DNA of 64,000 nucleotides, taken from NCBI GenBank assembly GCA_030390025.1, contig CM059432.1, positions 76,820,001 through 76,884,000 on the forward strand. Reading direction: 5' to 3'. A program made the position numbers and the translations under genes. This document shows, in pieces, positions 17,641-54,128 of the stretch (position 1 is the stretch's first letter; each line of letters opens with the position of its first letter). The notes under the pieces are model-generated. The model had not been told where the DNA came from. It saw only the letters and a program-made list of their open reading frames with translations, and searched no databases. The stretch is from Squalus acanthias (lineage: Eukaryota).

Positions 17641-17877
17641 GTCTAGGTTCGGATCGGTCATGGCCCTGTGGGTAGTGGAGCGGGCCCAGGGACTGTGTAG
17701 CCTGATTCTGCTCCTATTTCGTGTGTGCAATTCTGTTAGATGCAGGAGATGGTTCTGTGATAGATAGTAGATTGGCGGTTAGGATCAGATCAGCCATGAT
17801 CTTATTGAATGGCGGAGCAGGCTCGAGGGGCCGATTGGCCTACTCCTGCTCCTATTTCTTATGTTCTTATGTTCTTA
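16418..17877 (+). mobile_element. Young 5'-truncated CR1 nested in ORF1 of the host CR1
   Basis: TSD TGGATA (16412-16417 / 17878-17883). Stop-free RT. Host ORF1 resumes as DTAGGDG after the tail. Confidence 0.93.
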
Positions 17878-18497: not shown

Positions 18498-21422
18498 GTG
18501 AGCCCAGAATGGAGAGAAACAAAGCTGGAAGTGCAAGTTAGAAAAGTAGTCAGCAAAACTAGTAGGGAGCAGAAACAAAGGCCAACAGTAAAGAGGGTCA
18601 AAGTGCAGAAAAATATTAAACAGGCAAAGTTGAAGGCACGTTATCTAAATGCACGTAGCATTCGCAACAAGGTGGATGAATTAATGGCACAAATAGAAGT
18701 AAATGGGTATGATGTAATTGCCATTACAGAGACATGGTTACAGGGTAACCAAAGCTGGGAACTGCATGTTTCAGGGTACTCAACATTTAGGAAGGACAGA
18801 CAAAAAGGAAAAGGAGGTGGCGTAGCGCTGTTAATAAGGGATGAGATCGGTATGGTAGAGATAAAAGATCTTGGCTCGGCAGATCATGATGTGGAACTGG
18901 AATCAGTTTGGGTGGAGCTAAGAAACAGCAAAGGGAGGAAAACATTGGTGGGAGTTGTGTATAGGCCACCAAACAGTAGTGGTAATGTAGGGCACAGTAT
19001 CAATCAAGAAATTAGAAGTGTATGTAACAAGGGAAATATGGTAATCATGGGGGAATTTAATCTACATATTGATTGGGCAAATCAAATTACCACTAATGGT
19101 GTGGAGGACGAATTCTTGGAATGCATGCAAGATGGTTTCCTGGATCAGTATGTGGAGGAACCAACCAGGTAACAGGCGATTCTGGACCTGGTACTGAGTA
19201 ATGAGAAAGGGCTAATCAATAATCTTGTGGTAAAGGGGCCTTTAGGGACAAGTGACCATAATATGATTGAATTTTACATTAAGTTTGAGAGTGATGTAGT
19301 CCAATCTGAAACTAAAGTCTTCAATCTAAACCGAGGAAACTACAAGGGTATGAGGGACAAGTTGGCTATGGTAGATTGGGAGACTACACTAAAAGGTATG
19401 AAGGTGGACTTACAATGGCTAACATTCAAGGAAATAATGCATAATTTGCAAAAAACATATATTCCTCTAGGAAAAGTGATCCAACCATGGCTAACAAAAG
19501 AAATTAAAGCTAGTATTAAGTCCAAAGGAGGAAGCTTATAAAGTTGCCAGAAAAAGCGGTCAGCCTGAGGATTGGGATTTTTTAGAAATCAGCAAAAGGG
19601 GACCAAGAAATTGATAAAGAAAGGGAAAATGGAATATGAGCACAAACTAGCAAAAAATATAAAAACAGATTGTAAAAGCTTCTATAGGTATGTGAAAAGG
19701 AAAAGACTGGCAAAGGTAAATGTAGGTCTTTTACAGTCAGACGGGAGAATTTATAATGGGGAATGAGGAAATGGCTTGGAAATTAAATAAATACTTTGTT
19801 TCTGTCTTCACGAAGGAAGACACAAAAAACCTCCCAGAAATACGAGAAAACCAAGGGTGTGGTGAGAATGAGGAACTTAAAGAAATTACCATTAGTAAAA
19901 AAAACAGTACTAGCAAAATTAATTGGACTAAAAGTCGATAAATCCCAAGGACCGGATGACCTACATCCTAGGGTTTTGAAAGAGGTGGCCATTGGGATAG
20001 TGGACGCATTGGTTGTCATCTTCCAAAATTCTAGAGATTCTGGAACGGTTCCTGCAGATTGAAGGATAGCAAATGTAACCCCGCTATTTAAGAAAGGAGG
20101 GAGAGAGAAAACGGGGAACTACAGACCTGTTAGCCTCACATCAGTAGTTGGGAAAATGTTGGAATCTATTATAAAGGATGCAATAACTGGGCACTTAGAA
20201 ACTAATAGTAAGATTGGGCAGAGTCAGCATGGATTTATGAAAGGGAAATCCTGTTTAACAAACCTATTGGAGTTCTTTGAGGATGTAACTAGTGGACTAG
20301 ACAAAGGGGAACCGGTAGATGTGGTGTATCTGGATTTTCAGAAGGCCTTCGCTAAGGTCCCACACAAGAGGTTGGTGAACAAAGTTAGGGCACATGGAAT
20401 TGGGGGTAATATACTAGCATGGATTGAGAATTGGTTAACAGACAGAAAACAAAGAGTAGGGATAAACGAGTCTTTTTCAGGATGGCAGGCTGTGACTAGT
20501 GGGGTACCGCAAGGATCGGTGCTTGGGCCTCAGCTATTCACAATCTATATCAATGATTTGGATGTGGGGACTAAATGTAACATTTCCAAATTTGCTGATG
20601 ATACAAAGCTAGGTGGCAGTGTCAGTTGGGAAGAGGATGTGAAGAGGCTTCAAGGGGATCGCGACAGGCTCAGTGAGTGGGTGAGAACAAGGCAGATGGA
20701 ATATAATGTGGATAAATGTGAAGTTATCCACTTTGGTAGAAAAAACAGAGGCAGAGTATTTCCTAAATGGTGAAAGATTGGGGGATGCTCAAAGGGACCT
20801 GGGTGTCCTTGTACATGAGTCACTGAAAGTGAATGTGCAGGTGCAGCAAGCCATTAGGAAGGCAAATGGTATGCTGGCCTTCATTACAAGAGGATTTGAG
20901 TACAGGAGTAAAGAAGTCTTACTCCAATTATATAGGGCCTTGGTGAGACCACACCTGGAGTACTGTGTACAATTTTGGTCTCCTTACCTAAGGAAGGATA
21001 TACTTGCCATAGAGGGAGTGCAACGAAGGTTCATGAGATTGATTCCTGGGATGGTGGGACTGTCGTATGAGAAGAGATTGAGTAAACTAGGCCTGTATAC
21101 TCTTGAATTCAGAAGAATGAGAGGAGATCTCATTGAAGCATACAAAAATAATACAGGGCTTGATAGGGTGGATGCTGGGAGAACGTTTTCCTTGGCTGGG
21201 GAGTCTAGAACCAGGGGCCACAGCCTCAGGATAAAGGATAGGCCATTCAGGACTGAGATGAGAAGAAATTTCTTCACACAGAGGGTGGTGAATCTTTGGA
21301 ATTCTCTACCCCAGAGGGCTGTGGAGGCTCAGTCATTGGGTATATTCAAAACAGAAGTCGATAGATTTCTGACTAGTAAGGGCATCAAGGGATATGGCGA
21401 TAGGGCTGGTGAATGGAGTTGA
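18498..21422 (+). pseudogene. CR1 ORF2 (APE endonuclease - reverse transcriptase), frameshifted
   Basis: YLNARSIRNK, ITETW, VYRPP, SDH, YLDFQKAF, GVPQGSVLGP, KFADDTKL, FFTQRVVNLWNSLP spread over several ORFs. Confidence 0.95.
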
Positions 21423-21789
21423 GGCAGAAGATCAGCCATGATCTCGAAGGGCCGAATGGCCTACTCCTGCTCCTATTTCTTATGTTCTTATGTTCTTAAG
21501 ATGGCTTTTGGGATGAACAAGCACATCATTACAGCAATCCCGCAGTCCCTATTACCGGGCAAAGCTCCAATGAGTAACATGAGGAAATTTGTAATATTTC
21601 AATAAAAAAAATTATTTTTCTGACAACTGTGTCTTATTAAGCAAAACCAATAACAACCAAACACAACAGTTCATTAACAAACAAAACTGGTTCTTACCAC
21701 ATCAAGATAAGTCTTACCAGAGTGAACAATATATTAACATACACATCCAACTTTGGGACAAACATTCCCCCCATTTGTTAGAGAATTAT

Positions 21790-24673: not shown

Positions 24674-26551
24674 ATAGAATCTTAAAGTACAGAAGGAGGC
24701 ATATGGCCTATCATGCCTGTGCCGGCTCTTTAAAAGAGCTCTCCAATTAGTCCCACTTCCCTGCTTTTTCTCTATCGCCCTGCAAGTTTTTCATTTTCAA
24801 GTATATATCCAATAACATTTTGAAATCTGCTTCCACCACCCTTTCAGGCAGTGCTTAATAACTTGCATAAAAAGTGCATAAAAGAATTTCTCCTCATCTC
24901 CCTCTGGTTATTTTGCCAATAATCTTAAATCTGTGTCCTCTGGTTACCGACCCTTCTGCAAGTGGAAACAGTTTTTCCCTACCTAATCTATCAAAACCTT
25001 TGATAATTTTGAACACCTCTATTAAATCTCCCCTTAACCTTCTCTGCTCTATGGAGAAGAACCCCAGCTTCTCCAGTCTCTCCACGTAATGGAAGTCCCT
25101 TATCCCTCGTACCATTCTAGTAAATCTTCTTTGCATTCTTTCCAAGGTCTTGACATCTTTCCTAAAGTGTGGTGCCCAGAATTGGAAACAATGGCCAGAA
25201 TTTTGCCTACCTGGGCAGGTCCAGTACGGGCGGTGTCCGTGGCGGGTCGCGACACCGCTGCTGGCTCCATCCCACTGTTGAAAATGAACTGACCTTAATG
25301 GGGCTTATTAAGCCCGCCCAGTGCGTTACCCGGCCCAATGAGATGGAGCGGGCCTAGTGACGTCATTCATGACGCGTTTTCAGCCGGGATCTATAAAGGG
25401 ATCATGGCCACATTAGATTTGAAGTTTAATCTAACAGTGCTGTCAGTGCACTCCAGCATTGGAGTGCTGCAAACACTGACAATGACTGCACAGAGGCAGA
25501 GGGCTGCACCCAGGTTCTCTGATGACTCCCTCCATATGCTTGTGGAGGGACTCAGAGCACGCTGGGAGGTCCTCTTTCCTTCGGATGGGTGGGACAGACC
25601 TCCCCAGGAGACCAAGACAGCCTGGTTGCAGATTGCAGAGGAGGTCACAAGCAGGGATGTGGTCAGGAGGACCTGGGTGCAGTGCCTCAAACATTTCAAT
25701 GATCTCATTAGATCAGGAAACGTTAGTACAAAGCCACACTCAACTTCATCCTGCTGTGCCTCTCATCACATCCCCATCACGCTGCCTTCCCAACCCTGCT
25801 CCTGCACATCCTTACACCAACTTACCTTGCACGTCCACCCATCCCTCTCTCTATCTACATTATCACATCCCCATCTCAATAGCCACCCCTCAAACTCACC
25901 CTCATCCTAGTGCAATCATACCAACTAGCAACACACAAGGGTACTCACTTGGGTGTTTTATCCAATGTTTATGTAAAGTTTCTGTTAATGTGGTGTCAAA
26001 CGTAAAAATCTTTATTTTCAACACTTTCCGTCTTGGACAGATTTGTGTGCACCTTTCAAAGTTGTTATGAGTTGCAGTGAATGGTGGGACATAACGGTAC
26101 CCCCTGCAATGGTGATGAGTGTGAAAGGAATGGCTTGGTCATTGTAGGGATGTTTTATGGTGTTGGTGTGGGGTGGTGCCAACCTGGTGCATCATGTGGC
26201 AGCCATATGTACAGCGTAAAGTTAACGAAATCTGGCCATGATGAGGCCATCCCTGGCCTCTCGGGCAGCAATGTGCTTGGGTGCTGATGCCCCGTGTCCT
26301 GTGCAGCATCAGATGATTGCGGAGAAGGTTGGTGTTGTTGGTGCTGCTGGTGTTGGGGCTCACCGTGGTCCGATTCTGAGGACCAAGGTGAGACAGTATA
26401 AACGGCACCCATGTTGATGGAATAGATGGCAGGTGAAGCACAGAAGACAGAAGCATTCTGTCAATGGTGAGAGAGGTAATGAGGTGAGACTGGATGTAGA
26501 CTTTGCTGGAAACGCTTGCAGCCTGCAGAATTTGTGCTGGAAATGGACTGA

Positions 26552-27351
26552 TGTAAGAAACAGCTGTTAGATTCAGAGATGAAGTTTGACTCTTAGAACA
26601 GAAATTAAAATGCAGCCAGGAACAAATGGGTGAAGTGTCAGCAAGGTCAATTAACAAACACCAAAATGATAAGAAGGTCGTAAAATGCAAGAAAACACGG
26701 GAGGATAGTCATAGCTAGACAATAAGGAGACACGAAGCCATAAAATGTCCTTAAAGAAACATAACAAAACATTCCTCAGAAAGATAAGAGAAAAGGCCTC
26801 TGCAGCCATGCAGAAAGAAGCAGTGAGGGATGTTTTCCGGCACCACACTTGGGTTATAGATGATTATAGGTGATTGACATTAGCGAGATCACAGCCCACC
26901 GAAATAACTATAAATATAGTGGGCTGAGAGCAGAAGTCAGACAGCGAGGGACGAAGGCTTCTTCAAGGTGGAAATCAATGCTGGCTCAGGCCTAACACCT
27001 TGACTAAGTTCAGCCTCTGAGGTGGATCAATGCTGGCTTATGCTGAACACCTCCAACAGCCAGGGGGACAAATCAACAGAGGTGACTGCTGTTGCTGACT
27101 GCAGAGACTCGCTGACCCAAGACCTCCACGCTGTCTCATTGGGCATCTAACCAACCGTCCATCCGGTCGTGGCGTTCCGCTTCGGGAGTCGTAGATCGCT
27201 CTCTACTGTCACGGGTTGTATGTCTATTATATTCAGCTTAAACCATATGTAATACCTGATTATGCTTTAAAACTGAGCTCTTTAATAAAAGCCTTGCAAC
27301 TCCTAAAACCCTTTGGGTAATCTGTGTGTGGCCTGTGATCCTAATCTTACA
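26552..27351 (+). repeat. 5' LTR (800 bp)
   Basis: TGTAAG...CTTACA inverted ends, TATAAATA at 26909, AATAAA at 27284. Direct repeat of 36123-38090. Confidence 0.97.
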
Positions 27352-27352
27352 G

Positions 27353-27370
27353 TGGTGTCAGAAGTGGGAT
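27353..27370 (+). promoter_or_regulatory. Primer-binding site, tRNA-Leu (CAA/CAG type)
   Basis: TGGTGTCAGAAGTGGGAT is the 18-nt complement of the vertebrate tRNA-Leu 3' end (...ATCCCACTTCTGACACCA), 1 nt after the LTR. Confidence 0.9.
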
Positions 27371-27522
27371 CACAGAGTTAGGAGTTGTAAGGTTCCGGTC
27401 AAGGTGACCGGAGGGACTCGGTCAAATGCATGTGATCGTTGCTGAGACGGAGTATAGTGTTGTATTCTCTCTGAAAGAAGGGAGCGGTAAAGAGCTTGTT
27501 GAAAGGTAAAACCAGAAATACA

Positions 27523-29118
27523 ATGGCGTTGGCATATCATCGAGAATTATTAATAGACAGCCTGGCAGAAAAAGTCGGTAAGGCTGCGGCCACGGGCGTT
27601 CTAGGAATTTTAGAAGATAGTAGCGGGAACTATGATTGCATTCTTGACAAACTTTCGGCAGATATCCACCAAAACAAACTTAAGCTGAAGAAGGGCCGGG
27701 ATCAGTTGGCGTACGGGGCACACCTATTTGCTGAGCAGCTAAATCTGGAGGCTAAAGGGTTAAGGGAGTCAGTGCGTCAGCTGCAGCAGGACAACTCCGA
27801 GCTCCGCACCCAGCTATCCCGGGAGCAAAGAGAAAATGAGAAAGCACAGCGTGCCCAAAGGAAGCCAGACCAGATCCTAGACAATGACATTGAGTTACAG
27901 GCAGAGAACCGTAGGTTGAGAGAGGAGTTGGAAGATGCAAGAGGGGCAGAAAGGGAACTGAATCAACAGCAAAGCACCGTTTCCCCCGGGGCAGACCACG
28001 CCCTGTACCTAGAAAAAATCCAACAGCTGCAGGCACAAATTGGCCAACAGCGAGCAGTAGTGGCAGCCGTTTCCAAAATTAAACCAGCAGATCCCGACTC
28101 TTGTTGGGATGGTTTCGGACCGAGCCCTATTCCCTCTGCTCCTCCAGCTCCGCCTTCGTTGGTAGAGGGGGGCGAGGCAGACAAGATGCCAGTGTGCGTG
28201 GTCACCCGATCAAAGGCGGAATCGGAGCCCAAGGAAGCAGAAGGCGCGGAGACCCCCTCGAGCACTAGTATGATAGAGACAATTACCCGACGGCCCCTTA
28301 CTGCGGTCGAGGTCGGGACACTAAAAACTAACTTGGGAGCGTTGGGAGTCCGCACCGATCCCCTCGAGCTCAGGCAGCGTTGGAGGATTTTTAAAATTAC
28401 TCATCCAGAACTAGAAGGGAGCGACCTTAAACAGGTCCTCCTGGAGGCATGTTCCACAGAACTGAAACAAGAAATGGGTCAGGGCATTTTAGAAGGGGGC
28501 GATGTTGAGGATATTGGGACGGAGCTATGCCGAGTGTTGGGGGAGGGTAGCCTGGACTTCCACCAACTCCTTGCTAACGCCAAGCAGGGCCCTACTGAGA
28601 GCCCGCACGCTTTTGGGCAGAAACTTCACGATATCTTTCAGCGCATCGGGGGGGGACAGGGGAACACTACGACAACCCGGGCTTCAAAATCCTCTTCCTT
28701 AATGGCCTCCAACCATTGGTCCGCAAAGCGCTAGGCGTTTACGTTTCTAAAGACACCAACTGGGAAAAAATTGCAGATTCGCACCCAGGCTGCGTGGGAC
28801 CAGACCCTTACCAGTATTCCCCAAGGCGCAGTAGCGGCCTTTGAAGGCCCGCTGCCTAACCAGAGGTCAGGGGAGCCCAGAACATCCGTGATGGGGAAAA
28901 ACAGCTCAATATGCTGCTATCGCTGTCACCGCCTAGCCCACTATGCCCATCAATGCTACAATTCCCCAAGGCAGGTAGGCCCCAACACAGCCGACCAGCG
29001 GCTTGAGAGTGTGGAGGCAGCCCTAGCCGCCCTAAGCCTCAGTCAGAAAGCCCTACCGTGGTGCAACAGCAGGATGGGTCATTTCCACCACCGCCCGCGT
29101 TATGACTCCCGGGGTTAA
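27523..29118 (+). pseudogene. gag: gag, frameshifted near 28650 and 28780
   Basis: Long heptad/coiled-coil region, PSAPP late-domain-like motif, MHR-like QGPTESPHAFGQKL, CCHC knuckle CYRCHRLAHYAHQC. Confidence 0.88.
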
Positions 29119-31507
29119 CAGAGGGAGCGGGGGGCTTCCCCTCTCCAACACGATGAACACGGGAGGCCGGTAGTCCACATTGTTGATTCGGGAGGCCATC
29201 AACAACTAATGCTGGTCGACTCTGGCACCTCTATCACCATCATCCACAATCCCCACCCTGGCCCCAGTAAGGCTGTGCCCCAGCTTCTATCAGGCTTCAA
29301 CAATTCAACCCAGGTGACCATACAAGGGTCTCTTCCCATAGTATTGGACATAGGAGGGGCGCAGGTCGCAGTTCAAAACCCCATTTATATGTCCATGCAT
29401 ACCGGGCAGGGAATATTAGGCAGTGATGTGCTCGGCAGTCATCGGGCAGTGATTGATTATGCCAACAATTGTATCTGGTGGAACCTTCAAAACGGACCCC
29501 CCAACCCAGCGCGCATTCGGTATTCATGATTAAAAAAACAGAGGACTACGAACCAGTTACCTCTGCAGACCCGGAAGTCCGGGCGATCCTAGAGTCAGTC
29601 CTGGGAGTATTCGCGACTCACAAACATGATTGCGAGGGCATGACCGAACCCGAGGAGATTAATGGTCCGGTCCACGCTCCCATAAAACAGTACTCATACC
29701 CGGCTGGGAGTATACCATATATTCGAACTACCATCGAGTCATTGTTAAAGCAGGGTGTTGTCCGCAAAGGTACATTTACAACTAGCTCCCTCGTCTGGCC
29801 AGTCAAAAAGCCGGATGACAGTTGACGGGTAACTATCGACTACCGTAAGCTCAATTCAGTTACCCCCGCTTGCACTCCGGTGGTTCGAGAAACACCCACC
29901 CTACTCTCACAGATCCCCAACGGCAGCAAAGTCTTCTCCACCCTCGATATCTCGAATGGTTTCTGGAGTATCCCCGTAAGGCAGGAAGATCAGTTTAAAT
30001 TTGCTTTTACGTTCGAGGATCAGAGTTATACCTGGACGTGCCGGCCACAAGGGTTCCATAACGCCCCCACCATTTTCCACAAGCGTATGGCCGGGGCCCT
30101 GAAGAACTTTTCACGGCCCTCCTGTTTGCTTCAGTATGTTGATGATATCCCGCTTGCTACCACGGACCAAGCATTTGACACTCCTTCAGGAACTGCTGCA
30201 GCTACTTTTAAAAGCCGGACTGAAGGTCCACCCGTGGAAGGCCCAGCTGGTGCAGGATTGTGTCACCTTTTTAGGCGTCCGAATTGGAGCTTCTGGCATC
30301 AGCCCGGATCAGCATCAGATCGAAACCATTCAGCACCTCCCCCTGCCCACTTCAAAGACCGCCCTGCGTTCCTTTCTCGGGCTGGTGGGAGACCAGCGGA
30401 CTTTCATTCCACGATTTGCAGAAACAGCCGCGCCGCTTTATCAACTACTTAAAGGAAACGACGACCAAGTCCGACTCGGCTGGACTGAGGACTGTACAAA
30501 CGCAGTGACACAGTTGAAGCAAGCTGTCGCACAGGCTACGTGTCTGGTTCCAACCAAGCCCAGCGAGCCCTTTCATATGGAGGTAGGGGCCACAGAGAAA
30601 AGCCTCACAGCCGCCCTATGCCAGGATAACCAGGGCAGACTATTACCTATCGCCTATGCCTCCAGGATCTTAAGGGGGGCTGAACTGACTTACTCTGCCT
30701 GCAAAAGACACTTGCTGGCCACCTTTTGGGCCGTCAAACACTTCACCTACATAACGGGGTTCAATCAAGTGATACTACACAGCCCACATACGCCACTCAA
30801 ACTGCTGCTACGGCCCGGGGACACGCTAGTGTCATCGGCTCGGCTGAGCCACTGGACATTGGAACTGACTCAGCGTGACTTGGAGGTCACTCCCAAACGA
30901 ACTACTTTGCTGCCCCAATGACTCTTATACGACGGACCCCCGCACGAATGTCCCCTTCCTCCGCTGGACTTCCACACCACCACGGTCCAGGCAGAACCGA
31001 TTCAGGGGGCACCAGATGTCTTTATTGATGGATCATCATTCCACAAGGATGGGAAACCGCACACCGGATTTGCCGTTATCCTAACGAATGAGGTTATCCA
31101 ATCCAGTTGCACCCCTCATTCTGCGCAATACGCCGAGGTGACTGCTCTCGTAACCGCCGTTTAGATTACCGCCTCCCAAAGCATTAACATTTGGTCCGAC
31201 TGTGCCTCTGCTATCAACACCCTGCTGTCCTTGCCAATGTATGCGCGAAATAACTTTTGTACCACCGACGGTAAACCCCTGTTGCATGCCACCTTGTTTC
31301 AGGCCTTGGACGCGGGGTTGCGGGGACGTACGGCACCTGTTTATGTGGGTAAGGTTAAGGCACATTCCCGGTCCATAGAACCGCTAGCTAGGGGTAATTC
31401 CATGGCCGACCAGGCTGCCAAGCAAGCTGCTATAAACGCCCCGGTGTGGGAACGACCCCGGGAACCCAACACCCTACCCGTGGCAGCAATCAGCTTGGCC
31501 AACGACC

Positions 31508-32368
31508 GCTCCCTCCGCGACACCCTAGTCCACTCCTCTACCACCCCCAGCACCCCTTCCCCTTCGCCCGGCACCTTCCCGTGCACGCGCAGGAGATGCA
31601 ACACATGCCCTTATACCTCCCCTCTTCCCACTGTCCAGGGCCCCAAACACCCCTTCCAGGTGAAACAGCGATTTACTTGTACTTCCTGCAATTTAGTATA
31701 CTGTGTTCGCTGCTCACGATGTGGTCTCCTCTACATTGGGGAGACCAAACGCAGATTGGGTGACCGCTTTGCGGAACACCTCCGTTCAGTCTGTAAGGGG
31801 GACCCCGAGTTCCCGGTCGCCTGTCACTTTAATTCACCGCTTCACTCCCACTCTGACCTCACCGTCCTCGGCCTATTACACTGTTCCACGGAAGCGCAGC
31901 GTAAGCTCGAGGAACAGCACCTCATCTTTTGTTTAGGCACGCTACAGCCCTCTGGACTCAATATCGAGTTCAACAATTTTAGATCATAACCTCAGCTCCA
32001 ATCACATTTATATTTTATTTTTTCCACCCTTTTATTTGCCCCCCCCCCACCTTTTTTTTCCTCCTAGAAGCTGGCAGCTGTCCTTCATTCTGCCAGTGGA
32101 TTTCACACTTCTTTCAGCCTTAATCTGTCACATTAACACCACCTCTAGCCTTGCATATCTCTTAATGTCTCTTAATGTCTCTTCATCTCCCCCTTTGTTC
32201 CTTTATCCCCTCCCCCTTTTCCCAGCTTTACCCTGGCCTTAAATCTATTTGATTTCCGGCTCTTCCCAGTTCTGATGAAAGGTCATCGACCTGAAACGTT
32301 AACTCTCTTTCTCTCTCCACGGATGCTGCCTGGCCTGCTGAGTTTTTCCAGCGTTTTCTGTTGTTATT
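31508..32368 (+). mobile_element. 5'-truncated Penelope-like element (GIY-YIG domain plus terminal repeat)
   Basis: 13-bp TSD TTGGCCAACGACC. NLVYCVRCSRCGLLYIGETKRRLGDRFAEH...GLN. Removing it restores the pol frame (AISLANDLASLQ). Confidence 0.95.
32268..32304 (+). ncRNA. Minimal type I hammerhead ribozyme motif of a Penelope-like element
   Basis: AGTT-CTGATGA-A-AGGTC(ATC)GACCT-GAAACGTT-AACT: stem I, core, stem II, GAAA and palindromic AACGTT. Confidence 0.8.
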
Positions 32369-34841
32369 TTGGCCAACGACCTAGCCTCCCTACAGGCCGG
32401 GTATGACCCTTACTCTATAGTCATTGCATGGCACCAACAGGGCCCGCCCCTGCCAGCTCCAACCCCATGGGCCTCGCTCACTTTCCTCTACCAGGACACG
32501 ATCAGTACCCTGATGCCCATCCTCATATACGGTGACATCCCGGATTATTCTGTAACCTGTGTTCCCCCATCTATGGGAGATGAACTATTTGATCTGCTAC
32601 ACGCCCACCCGGTGGGGGGACATTATTCTGCAAAGATCACCCTGGAGAAACTCTCCACCACGGCCTGGTACCCCGGTTGTAATGAGGACTTTGAAAACAG
32701 GGTCCACAGGTGCCTTGCGTGTCTTCAGCATAACCCAGGCAATCACTCTAATAGGGCACCACTACGACAGCCGCCACCACCAAACGGGCCCTGGACACAT
32801 GTCCACATTGACTTTATAGGCCCTCTAGCCACGGCGCCCCTGGGCTACAAGTACTGTCTGGTCCTGATAGACAAATTCACAAAATGGATTGAGGCCTTCC
32901 CCTGCAGAGTCAACACCACTCTCACGGCAGCAAAACTGCTATTGTGCGAGGTGGTCTGCAGGTGGGGAATCCCGATCCAGGTAGATAGTGACCAAGGCTC
33001 ACACTTTACCAGGGAAGTCTTCACTGAACTCCAGAGACTCCTGGAAATCCCCCACAAACTACACATAGCACACCACCCACAATCATCAGGAGTGGTGGAA
33101 AGGGGGAACCGGACCCTTAAAACTATATTGAAAAAGTTTTGTGCGGACCACCCCGCACAATGGGCTAACATGCTGCCCATGTGCCTGATGGCGATAAGAG
33201 CAACCTCACATAGCACCATGGGTATTTCACCTTACCAGGCTATGACGGGGCGGCTAATGAGAACGTCGGCCCAGCTCCTCACTCCATCTCTCACCCCACT
33301 CCTGCAGGGGGCGGCCAACCAGAGGTGGTTAGAATCAATGATAGAACACATTCAGAGAACGAATGAGTTCGTAGCCCAACAGACCGGGAAAAGACAACAA
33401 CAGATAAAAAAGTACTTTGACAAAAAGGTTCGGCCTTTCGAGTATCAGATTGAGGATGTGGTTATGGTCCTAACTACCGAAGAAGGGAATATGCCTTCGA
33501 ATCTAAATGGGTGGAACCCTGCCCAATCAAAAACCGAGCCAGCCCCGCGGTATACCTGGTCCAAATCCCATATAAAAAGGGGAAGAAAAGGCCCAGGTGG
33601 TACCACATCAATCAGTTGAAAACTGTGAAAGGATAAATACTCCACATTTTCTGTTGTAGGTCACGGCACAGGATGACTCCACTCAAGATTCTGATAGAAC
33701 TGGCAGCAATCATCGGTATCATCCACCCGATGAACATAAACATCATCGTGAGACAAGGATTGATCCTGCGACCTACTAACGAGTCCACAGAGGACAACAC
33801 TTGGACTATTCCAGAGGATGGGTGTAATATGACTTTCTATTGTAATTACTGCAGCTGGGTGAGGCCCTATGAAAACGGACCCCCTGTAGAATGAGCACGG
33901 GAGGGGGAGGGGCTAAAGGTAGCATGCCAGTGTATTAAAGATCGAAATAGCGTAACACCAAACTTCCAATTGGGAAAGGGGAGTTATGGAGACCGGGGAT
34001 TCGGATTCGAGGATTCGGTTAGGATCACACCAGAGAGCGTGGGAATCCCCTAACTAGGGCAAAACCAGGACACACTAAACTGGCCAAAACTGAGCCAGAG
34101 GCACAGAGGGATGATTGGATGCCTTGATGCAGGCCCCCTGGGATGGGATCATCCAGGTAGCAGGGAGGGAAGGGTCCAACAGATTGAGATATATAAAGAG
34201 GAGAAAGGCAACAGCCAGGAAACAAGCAGCGCCAGAGTGAGGAAATGCCCACTGCTAGAGAAAGGGCCAAGGAATGGGTTAGTGGTCACCCACACCTATA
34301 AGAAGCTACACAACGACGTGAGATATGAGATAGTGCCCATTCTACTCCACTTCAGGGACATCCCTCTCCCGCAGGGGCTGTGTCCCGCAGGACACCGCAT
34401 CTACTTCAATCAGCTGGTGGGAGAAACAGTGAGGGATTTTGTAGCAAAAAACCAGGCACAGGATAACTGGGGATCATGGGACGAGAAAAAGGTAACAGCA
34501 GAAGTAAACATGACCAAAGCCAGGAGGAAACAAAGAACGAAAAGGGGATTGGGGGAGTGGGTCGGAATAGGGGCAGTGGCAGGGACAGCTGCCTGGAATC
34601 GGGTCGATGTAGAGAACATGTGGGAACACAACGAGGCAATGAGGAGTCAATTAAAAGGGATTCTATCAGGAACAAACAAAGAAGGGCGGGATGTGATCCA
34701 AGAACTGTCCCAAAATCTCTTGACAGTCAGAGGCGAGGTAAAGGTGTTCCAACAAATAGAAAAAACAGTTAATGAAATCATCAAGGATAAGGGGGAAGCA
34801 GAGAAAAACATATCCAGGGCTATGGTCTGTTCTGTTTATGG

Positions 34842-35052
34842 GAAGTCGCACAACACCAGGTTATAGTCCAATAGCTTTATTTGAAAACACAAGCTTTCGG
34901 AGCGCTGCTCCTTCGTCAGGTGAAGACTTCACCTGACGAAGGAGCAGCACTCCGAAAGCTTGTAATTTCAAATAAAGCTGTTGGACTATAACCTGGTGTT
35001 GTGCGACTTCTCATATTTGTCCACCCCAGTCCAACACCGGCATCTCCACATC
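34842..35052. mobile_element. 211-bp Penelope-derived foldback insertion in env
   Basis: 10-bp TSD CTGTTTATGG. 84-bp inverted arms around a 1-nt loop plus a 42-nt unpaired tail. Confidence 0.92.
34929..34965 (+). ncRNA. Minimal hammerhead motif (mirror copy on the minus strand at 34887-34923)
   Basis: TCAC-CTGACGA-A-GGAG(CAGCA)CTCC-GAAAGCTT-GTAA. Confidence 0.7.
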
Positions 35053-36110
35053 CTGTTTATGGAGTTATATGCTCAGCCAGATAGCAGACGGACTCAGAGA
35101 TATAGGAGACAATCGAATTCCATCCTTCATAAATGACAGCCTAATTAGTAGATGGTTCGCCAGGCACAACTACACCAGAGGAGCCCGACAGCATGGGCTA
35201 TCTTACCTAGTTAAAGGGAACGGGGTTCAGGGAAGCATGGTACCAGTGGTCTTGTGGCTACCCCGCCTCCAGGTAGAAGGCGAGTGGGAAGTATTCAAGG
35301 TAGAATCCATAGGGACCATGGACCGGGACATCCACACGTTATATGAAACTCCCCCCCCAATCCTGATCAACCAAGCTCAGACATGGGATAGCCCCAACAC
35401 CGAATGCTGCTCTGATCGAGGAGGGTCCTATTTGTGCCGCTGTGATGTAAGGAACCCAGGAAAGCCAGTCTGTGGCTTCACTCTGGATCCAGAGTCGCCC
35501 ACGTCTGGCGGTGGGGGCCAGATAGCGCAAAATATACGTCCCTCCAGATGGGAAAGTACTGTGTCACCACCAATGCCGAGACGATGAAACATGGGAATCA
35601 GGAATGTCCCATCCAGAGCCCTACATTCTGCTTTAAGCCGACCCAAACAACCATAATAGGGGGTCAGGTCCTACTCCCCGTCTCAGCTCACAACATCACA
35701 GAACTCAGAGTTAACATCTCCATGCTGAACGAAGCGCTCGAGGCCGTGACCCAGTTCGGCTACCCGATTCTCCCATTGTCTCTGAACCTCAAATCGATCT
35801 TAGACAGGACTAGCACCTCGGAAGCTCACTTAGTTAAAATGACCCAGCAGAATGAGGAGATGGAATCAGAAATCCAAAATCTAGGGGAACGGAAGTGGTA
35901 TGAATCAGTCTACAATGTTAGCCAAACTCCTTGGTTAAGGATGCTGACCCTGTTAGTAGTAGGGCAAGGATCCATACTGATAATCTTGGTAATACTGGTA
36001 TGCTACCTACGGCACCTAATCAAACGGATGGGGAGATGAGCCAATAACTTAGAATTAGCTAGAGTAGTTAAGAGTAAGTTGTGAGAAGTCAATAAGGCTA
36101 TTTCCTTCTC

Positions 36111-36122
36111 AAAGAAGGGAAT
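36111..36122 (+). promoter_or_regulatory. Polypurine tract
   Basis: AAAGAAGGGAAT immediately before the 3' LTR. Confidence 0.8.
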
Positions 36123-36582
36123 TGTAAGAAATAGCTATGAGATTCATAGATGAAGTTTGACTCTTAGAACAGAAATTAAAATGCAGCCAGGAACAAATGG
36201 GTGAAGTGTCAGCAAGGTCAATTAACAAACACCAGAATGATAAGAAGGTCGTAAAATGCAAGAAAACACGGGAGGAAAGTCATAGCTAGACAATAAGGAG
36301 ACACGAAGCCATAAAATGTCCTTAAAGAAACATAACAAAACATTCCTCAGAAAGATAAGAGAAAAGGCCTCTGCAGCCATGCAGAAAGAAGGAGTGAGGG
36401 ATGTTTTCCCACACCACAGTTGGGATATAGATGATTATAAGTGATTGACATTAGAGAGGTCACAGCCCACCGAAATAATTATAAATATAGTGGGCTGAGA
36501 GCAGAAGTCAGACAGCGAGGGGCGAAGGCTTCTTCAAGGTGGAAATCAATGCTGGCTCAGGCCTAACACCTTGACTAAGTTC

Positions 36583-37741
36583 GAAGTCGCACAACACCAG
36601 GTTATAGTCCAACAGTTTTATTTGAAATCACAAGCTTTCGGAGCTGCTGCTCCTTCGTCAGGTGAAGTGAAGGAATACAAATCGGCAAAGCATATATAGA
36701 CAGAGAACAATGCATGTGCAGAGTACAATGTCAGACGACTACAGTTAATCTTTCTGACTGCCTTTTATCACACCTCGGCAGAGATCAAAGACATAGCAAA
36801 ATACAACTAAGACAATGAGGTGGGGTCACAGGGGGGTCTAATGTGTCAAATGCTGCAGTCTGTATGGAAAACCATAAACTTTAAACTTTTTACTTTTTTT
36901 ACTGGAAATCACATCTGTGAACAAGCCAACGACGACTCTAGTCTGGATGACTCTACGTCAGGTGGGGTTACATGTAGTGTGACATGAACCCAAGATCCCG
37001 GTTGAGGCCGTCCTCATTGGTGCGGAACTTAGCTATCAGTTTCTGCTCGATGATTTTGCGTTGTCGTGTGTCTCGAAGGCCGTCTTGGAGAACGCTTACC
37101 CGCCACAGCGAAAAATCGCATAGACCTCCTCAGAAGGCGAACACGGGACACAACCAACAGGGTACCCTACATCGTCCAGTACTTCCCCGGAGCGGAGAAA
37201 CTACGCCATGTTGTTCGCAGCCTTCAACATGTCATCGATGACGATGAACACCTCGCTAAGGCCATCCCCACGCCTCCACTACTCGCCTTCAAACAGCCGC
37301 CTAACCTCAAAAGTACCATCGTTCGCAGCAAATTACCCAGCTTTCAGGAGAACAGCGACCACGACACCACACAACCCTGCCACGGCAAAAGTAAAAAGTT
37401 TAAAGTTTATGGTTTTCCATACAGACTGCAGCATTTGACACATTAGACCCCCTGTGACCCTACCTCATTGTCTTAGTTGTATTTTGCTATGTCTTTGATC
37501 TCTGTCGAGGTGTGATAAAAGGCAGTCAGAAAGATTAACTGTAGTCATCTGACATTGTACGCTGCACAGGCATTGTTCTCTGTCTATATATGCTTTGCCG
37601 ATTTGTATTCCTTCACTTCACCTGATGAAGGAGCAGCAGCTCCGAAAGCTTGTGATTTCAAATAAAACTGTTGGACTATAACCTGGTGTTGTGCGACTTC
37701 TCACTTTTGTCCACCCCAGTCCAACACCGGTATCTCCGCAT
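36583..37741. mobile_element. Rearranged Penelope/Poseidon-like element with about 315-bp inverted terminal repeats
   Basis: 13-bp TSD CTTGACTAAGTTC. Arms 36583-about 36897 and about 37387-37700, plus a 41-nt tail. Linker peptide PLLAFKQPPNLKSTIVRSKL on +, endonuclease C-terminus EQKLIAKFRT...GLNRD on -. Confidence 0.92.
37618..37655 (+). ncRNA. Minimal hammerhead motif (mirror copy on the minus strand at 36628-36665)
   Basis: TCAC-CTGATGA-A-GGAGC(AGCA)GCTCC-GAAAGCTT-GTGA with intact stems I and II. Confidence 0.8.
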
Positions 37742-38637
37742 CTTGACTAAGTTCAGCCTCTGAGGTGGATCAATGCTGGCTTATGCCTAACACCTCCAAC
37801 AGCCAGGGGGATGAATCAACAGAAGTGCCTGCTGTTGCTGACTGCAGAGACTTGCTGACCCAAGACCGCCACGCTGTCTCAACGGGCATCTAACCAACCG
37901 TCCGTCGTGGCATTCCGCTTCGGGAGTCGTAGATCGCTCTCTACTGTCACGGGTTGTATGTCTATTATATTCAGCTTAAACCATATGTAATATCTGATTA
38001 TGCTTTAAAACTGTAGCTCTTTAATAAAAGCCTTGCAACTCCTAAAACCCTTTGGGTAATCTGTGTGTGGCCTGTTATCCTAATCTTATACTGAGCAATA
38101 GCTTCTGCCTGAGGAAAGTGATCATCTGTCGGGTGGGAGCTCTTACTGAACATTTGATGCTGTCAAGTAATCAGCTGGAGCAATGGCCACTCAACTCCCG
38201 CCTCAGGTTGACAGACGTGGTTCCCGAGCTGCGTGAATCCCGTGGCCATGCAGGGAAATTTAAAAAGTAAGTGAAAAAAGACTTTGAAGTGCCTGTAAAC
38301 AACCTCATAATGATTTCAATCGGGTCGCCCACCGCTGCCAGTCTGGTCGGCACCGCGGTGACAGACGTGCCTGGGGGAAAGGCGCGGAGGGCGAGATGAC
38401 AGCGGGTTCCTGACCCGCTGTCAAAAAAAACAACTTTCCCACCCGACCCACCACCGATTGCGCCCGCTACCTCCCCCGAAAATTCCAGCCAATACTCCAG
38501 CTGAGGCCTAACCAGTGATTTATAAAAGTTTATCATAACTTCTTTTCTTTTGTACTCTATGCCTCTATTTCTAAAGCCAAGGATCCTATATGCTTTATTT
38601 TAACAGCTTTATCAACTTGTCCTGCCAGATTTGTGTC

Positions 38638-40254: not shown

Positions 40255-42161
40255 GGTCGAGAAATTGAATATGGCCACAAAATGGGCAGTGTTAGGGAGA
40301 AAGGGATAGACCAAGTAATTATAGCCTAACCTCGATGGTGGGCAAATTGTTGGAAAAAATTCTGAGGGACAGTGTTAATCATCATTTAGAAAGGCATGGA
40401 TTAATCAAGGACAGTCAGCATGGATTTGTTAAGGAAAGGTCATGTCTGACTAACTTGATTGCATTTTTTGAGGAGGTAACAAGCAGGGTTGATAAGGATA
40501 GTGCGTTTGATGCAGTCTATATGGATTTTAGCAAGGCCTTTGACAAGGTCCCACATGGCAGATTGGTCAGAAAAGTAAAAGCCCATGGGATCAAAGGGAA
40601 AGTGGCAAGTTGGGTCCAAAATTGGCTCAGTGACAGGAAGCAAAGGGTAATGGTCGATGGATGCTTTTGTGACTAGAAAGCTGTTTCCAGTGGGGTTCCG
40701 CAGGGCTCAGTACTAGGTCCCTTGCTTTTTGTGGTATACATCAATGATTTAGACTTCAATGTAGGGGGCATGATTAAGAAGTTTGCAGATGATACAAAAA
40801 TTGGCCGTGTGGTTGATAGTGAGGAAGAAAGTTGTAGACTACAGGAAGATATCAATGGACTGGTCAGGTGGGCAGAAGAGTGGCAAATGCAATTCAATCC
40901 GGAGAAGTAGGTAATGCATTTGGGAAGCGCTAACAAAGCAAGGAAATACACAATAAATGGCAGGATACTGAGAAGTGTAGAGGAACAGAGGGACCTTGGA
41001 GTGCATGTCCACAGATCCCTGAAGGTAGCAGGACAGGTAGATAAGGTGGTTAAGAAGTCATACGGGATACTTTCCTTTATTAGCTGAAGCATAGGCTATA
41101 AGAGCAGGGAGGTTATGCTTAACTATACAAAACACTAGTTAGGCCACAGCTGGAGTACTGTGTACAGTTTTGTTCACCACATTACAGGAAAGATGTAATT
41201 TCACTAGAAAGGGTACAAAGGAGATTTACGAAGATGTCGCCAGGACTGGAGAATTTTAATTATGAGGAAAGATTGGATAGGCTAGGGTTGTTTTCTTTGG
41301 AGCAGAGGAGGCTGAGGGGAAATTTGATTGAGGTGTATAAAAGTATGAGTGGATAGGAAGGACCTATTTCCCCGAGCAGAGAGGTCAATAACCAGGAGGC
41401 ATAGATTTAAAGTAATTGGTAGAAAGATTAGAGGGGAGTTGAGGAGAACTTTTTTCACCCAGAGGGTGGTGGGGGTCTGGAACTCACTGCCTAAAAGGGT
41501 GGTAGAGGCAGAAACCCTCATCACATTTAAAAAGTACTTGGATATGCACTTGAAGTGGCGTAACCCTCAAGACTACAGACCAAGAGCTGGAAAGTGGGAT
41601 TAGGCTGGATAGCTCTTTTTCGGCTGGCACAGACACGATGGCTTGAATGGCCTCCTTCTCTGCCATAAATTTCTATGATTCTATGAATCTAAGCCTTTAC
41701 TTAAGAATGAAGGTGTTCTCCACTTGCAACAACGCTCCCTGTTATCTTAGAACCTTGAAAGATGTTAATAAAGCTGCTGGAATTGCAGAAATATGCACAG
41801 AGCCTGTTAGAAACATGTCAGGTGAAAGTTGTCTGATGACCCCTTTTAATACTGCTGCTGGAGCCTCCTTCCTGCTTGTCAACGCTTGCTTAGCTCGTTG
41901 CACTTAAGACATTCCGATAAGTGGAGCAGCAAAGACGAAACTCACAGATTGGGCGTCAAGTGTGCGTTGCACACTCACTGACGTCACGATCTGCATAATC
42001 TACATAATTTTGTCGAGCACCGACATTGGCAGTGCTGCTGGCCATCTGAAAATGACGGCTGCCACAGGACCCATCGGCAGCAGGTGGAAGAGCAGCGGGT
42101 GCTATTTTTTTCCCTGAATCTGGCAGTAACGGGTGGGGCTAAACCTCCAAATTTCGTCCTT
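40255..42161. mobile_element. Harbinger-type MITE split by a CR1
   Basis: TSD TAA, ends N6-GAAATT. Removing it rejoins pol as IELQL|DIIAIQ. Confidence 0.7.
40292..41690 (+). mobile_element. 5'-truncated CR1 (RT region)
   Basis: QHGF, YMDFSKAFDKVPH, KFADDTK, FFTQRVV and a CTATGATT tail. Confidence 0.95.
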
Positions 42162-43709: not shown

Positions 43710-45700
43710 GTCTAAGGCAGATGAAATTTAACTTGGACAAGAGTAAAGGAAATTAAAAGAGGGTGTCATATATACTCAATAAATGGTGTTGGCACAGTTA
43801 AAGGTGAAGTTGAAAGAGGTTTAACCATATCAATAGACTCTGTGGTCAAAGTGCAGTGTGGAGCAGCAACCAACAAAGCAAATACAATGCTCAAGCATAT
43901 AGATCAAAAACAGCAGAATACATGTTGGAGAAAGTCATGCTTAAACTGTACTGCTGTGGTCAGATCACACCTTGAATAAATCTCAAACATTACTTCAAAT
44001 TAAACTGTGACAGTAAGGCATGGTCATAATAAGCCAGAGGACTGGAGGACAGATAACGTAGTACCATTATTCAAGAAGGGTAGTAGGGATAAACCAGGGA
44101 ATTACAGGCCTGTGAGCCTAACATCAGTGGTAGGGAAATTATTGGAAAAAATTCTGAGGGACAGAATCAGTCTCCACTTGGAGAGGCAAGGATTAATCAA
44201 AAATAGTCAGCATGGCTTTGTCAGGCGGAGATCATGTCTGACCAATTTGATTGAATTTTTCGAGGGGGTGACTAGGTGCGTGGATGAGGGTAGTGCAGTT
44301 GATGTAGTCTACATGGACTTCAGTAAGGCTTTTGACAAAGTTCCACATGGGAGACTGGTCAAGAAGGTAAGAGCCCATGGGATCCAGGGCAATTTGGCAC
44401 ATTGGATCCAAAATTGACTTAGTGGCAGGAGGCAGAGGGTGATGGTCGAAGGTTGTTTTTGTGACTGGAAGCCTGTGTCCAGTCGTGTACTGCAGGGATC
44501 GGTACTGGGTACTTTGCTGTTTGTAGTGTACATTAATGATTTAGATATGAATGTAGGAGGTATGATCAGTAATTTCGCAGATGACATGAAAATTGGTGGA
44601 GTGGTAAATAGCGAGGAGGGAAGCCTCAGGCTACAGGATGATATAGATGGGTTGGTCAGATGGGCGGAACAGTGGCAAATGGAATTTAACCCTGAAAAGT
44701 GTGAGGTGATGCATTTTGGGAGGACTAACAAGGCAAGGGAATACACAATGAATGGTAGGACCCTAGGAAGGACAGAGGATCAGAGGGACCTTGGTGTGCA
44801 TGTACGTAGATCCCTGAAGGCAGCAGGACAGGTAGATAAGGTGGTTAAAAAGGCATATGGGATATTTGCCTTCATTAGCCGAGGCATAGAATATAAGAAC
44901 AGGGAGGTTATGATGGAGCTGTACAAAACGTTAGTTAGGCCACAGCTGGAATATTGTGTGCAGTTCTGGTCGCCACACTATAGGAAGGATGTGATTGCAT
45001 TGGAGAGGGTGCAAAGGAGATTCACCAGGATGTTACCTGGGCTGGAGCGCTTCAGCTATGAAGAGAGACTGGACAGGCTGGGGTTGTTTTCCTTAGAGCA
45101 GAGAAGGCTGAGGGGGGACCTGATTGAGGTGTACAAAATTATGAGGGGCATAGATAGGGTAGATAGAAAGGAACTTTTCCCCTTAGTAGAGGGGTCAATA
45201 ACCAGGGGGCATAGTTTCAAGGTAAGGGGCAGGAGGTTTAGAGGGGATTTGAGGAAAAACTTTTTCACCCAGAGGGTGGTTGGAATCTGGAACTCACTGC
45301 CTGAAAGGGTGGTAGAGGCAGGAACCCTCACAACATTCAAGAAGTATTTAGATGAGCACTTGAAATGCCATAGCATACAAGGCTACGGACCAAGTGCTGG
45401 AAAATGGGATTAGAATAGACAGGGCTTGATGGCCGGTGCAGACACGATGGGCCGAAGGGCCTTTCTGTGCTGTATAACTCTATGACTATGAGTCTATGAG
45501 TTCCAACTAGCCAAAGGTAAATTTAGGATTAATACCAAGAAATTACCCTTTTGCATAAAGAGTACTCAACAAGTGGAATGGAATTCCAGGTATGGTAGTA
45601 GAAGCACAAACTGTGGAATCATGCAAGAAATAGCTGATGGGGCAAATGTGTGATGTGATCTTTCTGTATTAGTGAGCTAGGATGGGTCAAATGAAGCTTC
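43710..45700 (+). mobile_element. Very old CR1 relic (about 43710-44028 and 45500-45700) flanking a younger CR1
   Basis: Eroded WQMKFN, KAN.ML, KLY..VR.HLE and RV...WN motifs. GGTCATAA|GTTCCAACT rejoins across the younger insert. Confidence 0.55.
44030..45499 (+). mobile_element. Young 5'-truncated CR1, RT nearly intact
   Basis: ORFs 44007-44417 and 44439-45413 are in the same frame and separated by one TGA. CTATGA tail. Confidence 0.95.
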
Positions 45701-53280: not shown

Positions 53281-54128
53281 ATTCCTTTACACATTGTTTC
53301 CCCTCATTCTTTCCCTAGTGCACATCTTCACACCTATTTTTCACTGGGCCTTTATATCTTCAAATTTGTCAAACTATTGAGGTTATTCAAATGCTTTATA
53401 TATTACTCCTGATTTTTGGGGAACTATTTTGGCCCACGCTAATTGATGCCTGTAACTGTAGTAATTATGGTGACCAAAAACATGCTTTCTCTTTTGTTTT
53501 AGTGCAATACTTGACTAAATTTGAAGCACTTTAGAAATATAGCTTACAGATTAGTGTGCATTTATTACCAGCAGGAACAATGCTGTGGGTTGAATTTTAA
53601 CCATTCCGGCCAGGCAGGAAATGGACAGCAATGGGTTGGCCATCCATTTTACACCCTGCCCAATTTTTCATTGACTTCTAAACGAAAAGATGAATCCAGT
53701 AATTTCCAGTTGTTAAGGTGTTTAACTTGCATTGTAACTTCAAACATGCCATTAGATGACCTCACCTACCATCAACAATAAATTATCTTGTGACAATGTA
53801 GAAAATATCATGCTCATAGTTTGGTGGTAACTATCTGTATTACAACAACCATTTTGATAGCTCGCCCCAGGTATCTGACAGAACTTTACAGGGTGAGGGA
53901 AAACAGTGGATGCTTAGGCAAAAAGAGAAAATTGAAAAGTTTGGGATGGGACTAAGGCACAAACAAAAAGAAAGGCTTTTATGGGAGTTTTGAAAGCAGG
54001 GAAAGAGGCCTAAATTCCACCTCTTTCCCAGTTCTATGCTCCCCATTGGCACATCTAAGGCTTTGCAGGTTAGATTTAAATAGTCTGCACACGTCTCCTT
54101 ACTCTAATTAACTGACCTCATAATTTAT

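What the first reader, a model, noticed from the sequence alone, without database searches (positions are those of the whole stretch)
33673..34260. Candidate immunoglobulin-like domain at the N-terminus of the viral envelope protein
Seen: 33673 and 34111 are in the same frame, separated by two stops. Reading through gives a signal-like peptide, then IPEDGCNMTFYC...PPVE*(TGA, plausibly from TGG Trp)...TLNWPKLSQRHRGMIGC...VQQIEIY. This fits the Ig pattern: B-strand G-x-x-x-T-x-x-C, C-strand V-x-W, and E/F strands L-x4-L-x3-(D)-x-G-x-(Y)-x-C. It lies ahead of the F2-like segment. Inference: a captured Ig-fold receptor-binding or immune-mimic module fused to a fusogen, an architecture I do not recognise from retroviral Env or paramyxoviral F.
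Basis: inference. Interest (0 to 1): 0.8.

Follow-up and report, generated by a model that had tools for sequence, protein, structure and literature searches.

The report
Ig-like head on shark-retrovirus F-type envelope
The broken envelope gene of a dead endogenous retrovirus in a cartilaginous-fish-type genome begins with a domain predicted to have the antibody-like (immunoglobulin) fold, placed in front of a predicted measles/RSV-type fusion machine, and that domain was likely the part that gripped the host cell.

Summary
33673-36084 is the broken env of an LTR provirus (26552-38090). Read with X at its two stops, the N-terminal part folds in AlphaFold2 to a beta-sandwich (mean pLDDT 60, about 33811-34203). 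All 50 listed rows of a search over 48,161 PDB chains are Ig-superfamily entries (best Z 9.7). A naturally open sister-family Env matches paramyxo/pneumovirus F only downstream of this head, so the head is an add-on, not F's own domain II. None of 28 aligned sister copies has Trp at the first stop; the strand called 'B' is strand A; the canonical Trp and tyrosine corner are missing; no Pfam or PDB sequence hit; no host donor found. The head is conserved between virus families yet diverges faster than the fusion core, as a receptor-binding domain would (inferred). Ig-like N-terminal receptor-binding domains are known in gamma- and alpha-type Env; on an F-type Env I found none in 8 paper searches. 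By hand count the RT is nearer snakehead retrovirus than lokiretrovirus. The scan has noted Ig heads on other env DNA of this genome before.

The parts
26552..27351 (+). 5' LTR (TG...CA); 4-nt target-site duplication at 26548-26551 and 38091-38094
   Evidence: 765 of 796 aligned bases identical to the 3' LTR
27353..27370 (+). primer-binding-site-like 18-mer right after the 5' LTR (tRNA identity not tested)
   Evidence: sequence
27475..29118 (+). gag region, broken; weak zinc-knuckle hit near its end
   Evidence: zf-CCHC_3 E 0.0085, below cut-off
29119..33619 (+). pro-pol, broken: protease, RT (YVDD), tether RNase H, second RNase H, integrase; an unrelated insert with a weak GIY-YIG hit lies at about 31520-32370 (edges by eye)
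   Evidence: RVP, RVT_1, RT_RNaseH_2, RNase_H, rve, Integrase_H2C2; best PDB sequence hits are foamy-virus Pol and integrase
33673..33729 (+). env start and signal-peptide-like stretch; a pyrimidine-rich tract ending in AG just upstream (33640-33660) looks like the env splice acceptor (inferred)
   Evidence: sequence
33811..34203 (+). Predicted Ig-like beta-sandwich head (model residues 28-158). Strands by order: A 33820-33840, A' about 33892-33906, B 33913-33939, C 33958-33978, E 34072-34083, F 34108-34128, G 34168-34185 (letters inferred from order and aligned ranges)
33892..33894 (+). premature TGA; not shared by any of the 28 aligned sister copies
34051..34053 (+). premature TAA; not shared by any of the 26 aligned sister copies
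34204..34254 (+). low-confidence linker ending in a Cys-Pro motif shared with distant Envs
34255..34545 (+). F2-like segment ending in a furin-type site RTKR (34534-34545)
   Evidence: 49% identical over 202 columns to the sister-family Env whose model matches F
34546..36084 (+). F1-like segment: fusion-peptide-like start, heptad helix, Cys-rich part, TM-like stretch about 35941-36009. Broken by a 220-nt insertion near 34841, a frameshifting deletion near 35504 and probably a further premature TGA at 36037
   Evidence: (inverted pair I16)
36123..38090 (+). 3' LTR after a purine tract, split by a 1172-nt insertion at 36570-37741

Best explanation
This is the front end of the broken env gene of a multi-copy endogenous retrovirus: after a signal-like peptide comes a roughly 130-residue domain predicted to have an immunoglobulin-like fold, then a predicted paramyxovirus-F-type fusion protein, and the domain was likely the virus's built-in receptor-binding head. 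Shown: provirus anatomy, two private stops, many sister copies, order of parts, conservation of the head between virus families. Predicted: Ig fold of the head; F fold of the core, starting right after the head. Inferred: after cleavage at RTKR the head stays on the F2-like surface subunit, three per trimer, binds a cell-surface molecule and so positions or triggers the fusion core, the job that paramyxoviruses give to a separate attachment protein and gammaretroviruses to an N-terminal IgV-like RBD. This copy is dead: the first stop ends translation at codon 74.
For: Model of the X-read head with 22 rows: nine strands, pTM 0.61, 81 of 187 residues at pLDDT 70-90. Foldseek PDB: 12 matches at E<=0.001, best 2.3e-4, listed rows are Ig-domain or antibody entries. 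VIA on Foldseek's best 1000: NCAM Ig1 Z 9.5, rmsd 2.6 over 93 residues. VIA over 48,161 chains: best Z 9.7 (Necl-4, rmsd 3.0, 92 residues), Z 8.2 at rank 50, all 50 rows Ig-superfamily entries, against 7-8 and 4-5 for models with no clear match. BFVD: top rows include viral CD200-like and Ig-like proteins. Sister-family Env model: residues 184-604 match paramyxo/pneumovirus F from about its residue 26 (Z 11.9 to 9.8 with rmsd 5-23; weak PF00523 hit E 0.035), and its own head is modelled as nine strands at 28-161. Head under purifying selection between families: dN/dS 0.10-0.17 in 6 pairs with dS near saturation; head identity 21-40% versus core 46-55% to the farther families. Homologue P0005 (37% over query 72-432) is auto-named Ig-like domain-containing protein; P0008 has a weak V-set hit, E 0.045. 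Precedent for N-terminal IgV-like RBDs: bioRxiv 10.1101/2024.03.17.585361.
Against: Model confidence is moderate: mean pLDDT 60.3, the other four models 50.0, 43.6, 39.8, 33.1, from a shallow alignment. No Ig family hit in Pfam for any of 19 head sequences at E<=10 or for the window read-through; no significant PDB sequence hit for head profiles; ESM Atlas gave only a low-score haemagglutinin lead and a blank. Canonical IgSF marks are partly missing: Phe where the C-strand Trp is expected, no D-x-G-x-Y before the F-strand Cys, and that Cys is kept in only 21 of 27 aligned sisters. No binding evidence of any kind. Some related Envs lack the head (P0009) or carry a different Cys-rich one (P0012, P0014, by eye), so it is not needed by every F-type Env. 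Between close subfamilies head dN/dS is only 0.49-0.61, and near 1 among close copies.
Confidence: 0.62

Rival explanations
1. The head is Ig-like but is not the receptor-binding part: it is an immune mimic or decoy (CD200/SIRP/CEACAM-like), or a cap that stabilises the prefusion trimer, and attachment is done by the F core.
For: Viral Ig-fold immune modulators are among its top BFVD neighbours (CD200-like poxvirus protein E 2.4e-4, CMV RL11 family). P0009 has an F-type core with no head. Pneumovirus F can attach without a partner (recalled, no call).
Against: Structural hits are spread evenly over I- and V-set domains at 7-19% identity, with no specific host model to mimic. N-terminal position and faster divergence than the core match known retroviral RBDs.
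Confidence: 0.2
2. The head is a viral beta-sandwich of independent origin that only resembles Ig, or the Ig topology is partly an AlphaFold bias from a shallow alignment.
For: No sequence-level Ig hit for this family; four of five models below pLDDT 51; canonical Trp and tyrosine corner absent.
Against: Two aligners and three libraries agree on IgSF, with the whole domain from strand A to G aligned; homologous heads in other families are more canonical and one is auto-named Ig-like.
Confidence: 0.13
3. The head is a piece of the F fold itself (F domain II has an Ig-superfamily fold) rather than an added domain.
For: Domain II of foamy Env and F has an immunoglobulin-superfamily fold (PMC11468914, passage).
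Against: In the sister-family model the F match starts at residue 182-184 and covers F from about its residue 24-34 onward; the head at 28-161 lies wholly before it.
Confidence: 0.05

Closest known systems
Gamma-type Env RBD-C (MLV, FeLV, EnvP(b)1, ZFERV) and Env-Dbi SIRP-like IgV RBD (bioRxiv 10.1101/2024.03.17.585361; abstract and passages read; supplements closed)
   Same: An independently folding Ig/IgV-like domain at the N-terminus of the surface subunit, joined by a linker to the rest of Env, and more variable than the fusion part.
   Different: Those sit on gamma- or alpha-type Env; here the core is predicted F-type. Env-Dbi has a clear host donor (SIRP); here none was found. Binding is proven for MLV/FeLV, untested here.
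Lokiretrovirus Env (PMC7947760; parts 1-2 of 4 of the text, passages, supplement searches and supplement part 68 of 82 read)
   Same: LTR-gag-pol-env, dual RNase H, Env with signal peptide, RXKR site, fusion peptide, coiled coil, TM and similarity to PF00523.
   Different: No Ig domain is mentioned (0 occurrences of 'immunoglob' in text or held supplement). The paper lists no cartilaginous-fish host. By hand count the window's RT matches the printed SnRV RT better (about 80 of 149 positions) than the one Loki RT counted, Loki-Bpe (about 61 of 149).
Snakehead-retrovirus-like ERVs, CmiERV lineage I of elephant shark (PMC4422223, part 1 of 2 read; PMC4977317 passages)
   Same: SnRV-like ERVs are known in cartilaginous fish; the complete lineage I element spans about 9.6 kb with 0.033 LTR divergence, similar to this one.
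   Different: The parts read do not describe Env structure. Membership here rests on a hand count, not a tree.
Paramyxo/pneumovirus F and foamy-virus Env (PMC11468914, passages read)
   Same: F-type domains I-III fold, furin-type cleavage, heptad helices.
   Different: F has no N-terminal add-on domain; the foamy RBD is a large insert of a different fold (residues 217-543), not an N-terminal Ig domain.

Membership tests
Ig-like fold | Two-sheet beta-sandwich of 7-9 strands with Ig topology | tested here: met
   Predicted only: (Z 9.7, rmsd 3.0, 92 residues; all 50 rows IgSF entries); model confidence moderate
IgSF V/I-set (sequence sense) | Match to V-set, I-set or ig profiles | tested here: not met
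   0 of 19 head sequences hit an Ig family at E<=10; window read-through none. Only distant P0008 gives V-set E 0.045, below cut-off
IgSF V/I-set (sequence sense) | C-strand Trp | tested here: not met
Strand letter inferred
IgSF V/I-set (sequence sense) | B-F disulfide | tested here: inconclusive
   Cys in the B-like strand (33925, 33931: 26 of 28 and 28 of 29 kept) and in the F-like strand (34120: 21 of 27 kept); model coordinates not available, so pairing not measured
IgSF V/I-set (sequence sense) | D-x-G-x-Y-x-C tyrosine corner | tested here: not met
   Only the Gly (27 of 27 aligned sisters) and Cys are present; a short helix precedes strand F in the model
F-type class I fusogen | F domains I-III fold | tested here: met
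   On a sister-family Env 49% identical in the F2/heptad part: all 50 rows paramyxo/pneumovirus F, Z 9.8-11.9, rmsd 5-23; BFVD rows mostly viral F-like and fish-retrovirus glycoproteins. Not folded for the window's own broken copy
F-type class I fusogen | Furin-type site, fusion peptide, heptad helix, TM | tested here: met
   Sequence; helices in the sister-family model
Retroviral receptor-binding domain | Binds a host receptor | not testable with these tools
   No data; inferred from position and divergence
Lokiretrovirus | Dual RNase H and F-like Env with RXKR | tested here: met
Lokiretrovirus | RT inside the Loki clade | tested here: inconclusive
   No tree. Hand count favours SnRV, about 80 versus 61 of 149; Loki RT motifs printed are absent
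Lokiretrovirus | Integrase closest to CGIN1 | not tested
   Best PDB sequence hits are foamy integrase, but CGIN1 and Loki integrases were not in that comparison
SnRV-like ERV | RT clusters with snakehead retrovirus | tested here: inconclusive

The most novel reading that the evidence does not exclude
F-type retroviral envelopes of sharks, rays and amphibians carry a swappable N-terminal attachment slot that has been filled, more than once, with Ig domains taken from host cell-adhesion or immune-receptor genes. This would give a one-chain equivalent of the paramyxovirus attachment-plus-F pair, reached independently of the gammaretroviral RBD, and it appears in a snakehead-retrovirus-like lineage not yet described as having F-type Env.
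Probability: 0.3. Interest if true: 0.72.

Novelty: new variant of a known kind. Interest (0 to 1): 0.5.

Why it matters
F-type fusogens are now linked across paramyxo/pneumoviruses, foamy viruses, lokiretroviruses and errantiviruses, but how retroviral versions find their target cell is open outside foamy viruses. A discrete, variable Ig-like head is a concrete candidate that can be tested as an isolated domain, and the family series (degenerate Ig here, more canonical Ig in sister families, no head or another head elsewhere) is a natural data set for how attachment domains are gained and exchanged. The concept of an Ig-like RBD on Env is not new and this copy is dead, which caps the interest.

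Tried and rejected
Sequence-level Ig detection: negative in Pfam (for P0002, 47, 54), PDB sequences and ESM Atlas. Word-based homologue searches were insensitive: 0 hits and 2 hits each. Profile comparison of the head alignment with distant Envs P0007, P0011, P0008, P0012 aligned mainly the F2 start carried by one row, so it does not show that their heads are homologous; only the L084 head aligned over the head itself (prob 54.5, E 1.2e-4). Co-option of the intact env frames: dropped as a main reading, since both the L084 family (41 matches) and the P0034 family (many broken matches at 65-88%) are multi-copy in G000; L087 and L088 were fetched but not analysed. Head as F domain II: rejected. 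The motif-versus-shuffle count is post hoc and not used. No snakehead-retrovirus Env was named in the 50 BFVD rows shown; this absence says nothing. Complex prediction and read-mapping tools were not used. Literature: 8 searches found no paper describing an Ig domain on an F-type retroviral Env; subscription journals are mostly outside the library, bioRxiv supplements were closed and the PMC7947760 supplement is cut, so whether published Loki or SnRV Envs carry such heads is unchecked.

Full report
Setting. The stretch lies in an LTR provirus at 26552-38090: LTRs 765 of 796 aligned bases identical, the 3' one split by a 1172-nt insert, with a 4-nt target-site duplication. Pfam finds protease, RT, two RNase H domains and integrase in broken frames. 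env runs from 33673 to about 36084 and is broken by stops at 33892 and 34051, a 220-nt insertion near 34841 and a frameshift near 35504. A DNA search of the genome with 33673-34300 gave 42 matches from 40 scored of 50 candidates, 80-100% identical; a protein search with a sister head gave 150 listed matches down to 33%. Named homologues come from sharks, a skate and frogs, so the host is probably a cartilaginous fish (inference). LTR divergence of about 4% means roughly 90 million years under the shark rate assumed in PMC4422223, a figure that paper itself calls uncertain.

Observation. The register is not. Among 29 sister loci, 28 align at the first stop: all have a sense codon, none Trp; 26 align at the second stop, all sense. 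Both stops are private decay. Cys at 33823, 33841, 33850, 33925, 33931 and 34120 are kept in 23 of 28, 23 of 28, 27 of 28, 26 of 28, 28 of 29 and 21 of 27 aligned sisters.

Fold of the head. Sequence searches see no Ig: no Ig family in 19 heads, none for the window, no significant PDB sequence hit, nothing usable in the ESM Atlas. AlphaFold2 on 33730-34290 read with X at the stops, with 21 natural relatives, gave a beta-sandwich: mean pLDDT 60.3, pTM 0.61, 81 of 187 residues at 70-90, the other four models 33-50. Foldseek against PDB returned Ig-domain and antibody entries (best E 2.3e-4; 12 at E<=0.001). VIA gave NCAM Ig1 Z 9.5, rmsd 2.6 over 93 residues, model 30-158 against chain 1-99; the Foldseek-independent run over 48,161 chains gave Z 9.7 at the top and 8.2 at rank 50, all 50 rows Ig-superfamily entries. 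The domain therefore spans about 33811-34203. Strand letters are inferred from order and aligned ranges; I saw no residue-level superposition. Independent hints: a bamboo-shark homologue is auto-named 'Ig-like domain-containing protein' in UniRef, a distant Env has a weak V-set hit, and a sister family in this genome has a homologous head that looks more canonical by eye.

The core. A naturally open Env of that sister family (L084), 49% identical to the window over the F2/heptad part, was folded unaltered (mean pLDDT 61, pTM 0.38). Its residues 184-604 match paramyxo- and pneumovirus F from near their N-terminus (Z 9.8-11.9 but rmsd 5-23); BFVD gives F-like viral glycoproteins, fish epsilonretrovirus Envs and feline foamy Env; Pfam PF00523 is weak (E 0.035). 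The head lies wholly before the F match, so it is an added domain and not F's Ig-fold domain II (PMC11468914).

Selection. Ten natural open frames were compared pairwise. Between the window's subfamily and the L061 family head dN/dS is 0.10-0.17 in 6 pairs (dS above 2, so rough; the other 6 such pairs were saturated); between close subfamilies 0.49-0.61; among close copies mostly near 1, as expected after insertion. Against the two farther families heads are 21-40% identical and cores 46-55%. The head was thus a maintained coding domain that changes faster than the fusion core.

Mechanism. Most likely the head is the attachment module: secreted with Env, kept on the F2-like subunit after cleavage at RTKR (34534-34545), displayed on the trimer and binding a cell-surface molecule. 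Fold and order are predicted; display, binding and triggering are inferred by analogy. Rivals: immune mimic or prefusion cap (0.2), non-Ig sandwich or modelling bias (0.13), part of F (0.05). Capture from a host gene is neither shown nor excluded: the 1.84-billion-protein search with a sister Env returned 13 proteins, all matching through Env-like parts.

Comparison with what is known. N-terminal Ig-like RBDs are established for MLV, FeLV and EnvP(b)1, and a SIRP-derived IgV RBD is described for Env-Dbi (bioRxiv 10.1101/2024.03.17.585361, abstract and passages). F-like Env is described for lokiretroviruses (PMC7947760), foamy viruses (PMC11468914) and errantiviruses (bioRxiv 10.1101/2023.10.26.564294; abstract, passages and part 1 of 2 of section 6; 0 occurrences of 'immunoglob' or 'Ig-like'). 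PMC13709493 (one passage) and PMC10435555 (passages) added nothing. Eight searches found no report of the two together; closed or cut supplements and subscription journals limit that. For the element's lineage, PDB hits put RT and integrase nearest foamy virus; a hand count against RTs printed in the PMC7947760 supplement gives about 80 of 149 identities with SnRV and 61 of 149 with Loki-Bpe, the one Loki RT counted; SnRV-like ERVs are known in elephant shark (PMC4422223). I file it as probably SnRV-like, working like a lokiretrovirus in Env type, with membership untested by tree.

Earlier scan notes. Sixteen notes hold the words lokiretrovirus, env, Ig, shark; the 8 shown are on other DNA of this genome; a look-up by sequence with a sister Env of this family found none. 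They are unchecked repeats of the idea and are not counted as support.

Verdict. A real, degenerate Ig-like head on a predicted F-type retroviral Env in a dead provirus; new variant of a known kind; interest 0.5.

Noticed in passing
window 29640-30150: RT looks closer to snakehead retrovirus than to lokiretroviruses by hand count, while earlier scan notes on Ig-headed Envs of this genome name lokiretrovirus Env as closest. F-type Env in an SnRV-like lineage was not found in one search.
   Followed up: partly
L084:1189-3543 (G000:C4): A 784-codon open frame covering a whole env of a sister family with a more canonical Ig-looking head; the family has at least 41 matches in G000.
   Followed up: partly
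P0005 and P0034: Full-length open Envs in two named sharks (Chiloscyllium punctatum, Scyliorhinus torazame), 86% identical; relatives in G000 are broken and multi-copy. Co-option or shared recent activity not tested.
   Followed up: partly
P0006, P0017, P0018: RefSeq-predicted transcripts in Carcharodon carcharias (LOC121280168) encode signal peptide plus head only, ending before the fusion core; could be a soluble head or just a truncated copy.
   Followed up: no
P0007, P0008, P0011, P0013, P0009, P0012, P0014: F-type Envs from frogs, a skate, sharks and unnamed records have different N-termini: Ig-looking by eye, absent, or another Cys-rich domain.
   Followed up: partly
BFVD rows 2 and 22: Predicted structures of walleye epsilonretrovirus Envs (WEHV-1 E 4.2e-14, WDSV E 1.7e-8) rank among the best matches to the F-type Env model, hinting that epsilonretroviral Env is F-type too; low TM-scores.
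   Followed up: no
window 34837-35015, 36570-37741, 54124-54215, about 31520-32370: Repeats inserted into the provirus: an 89-nt head-to-head inverted pair in env, the same end sequence bounding a 1.17-kb insert with 259-nt inverted arms in the 3' LTR, and a fragment with a weak GIY-YIG hit in pol; possibly Penelope-like (recalled label, not tested).
   Followed up: no
window 2043-3061, 16423-17643, 20132-21425, 40323-41617, 44115-45427: Several diverged copies of a LINE-like repeat (label from sequence look, not tested).
   Followed up: no
G000:C3:116.3-118.4 Mb: A cluster of at least ten related env matches within about 2 Mb, suggesting local duplication after insertion.
   Followed up: no
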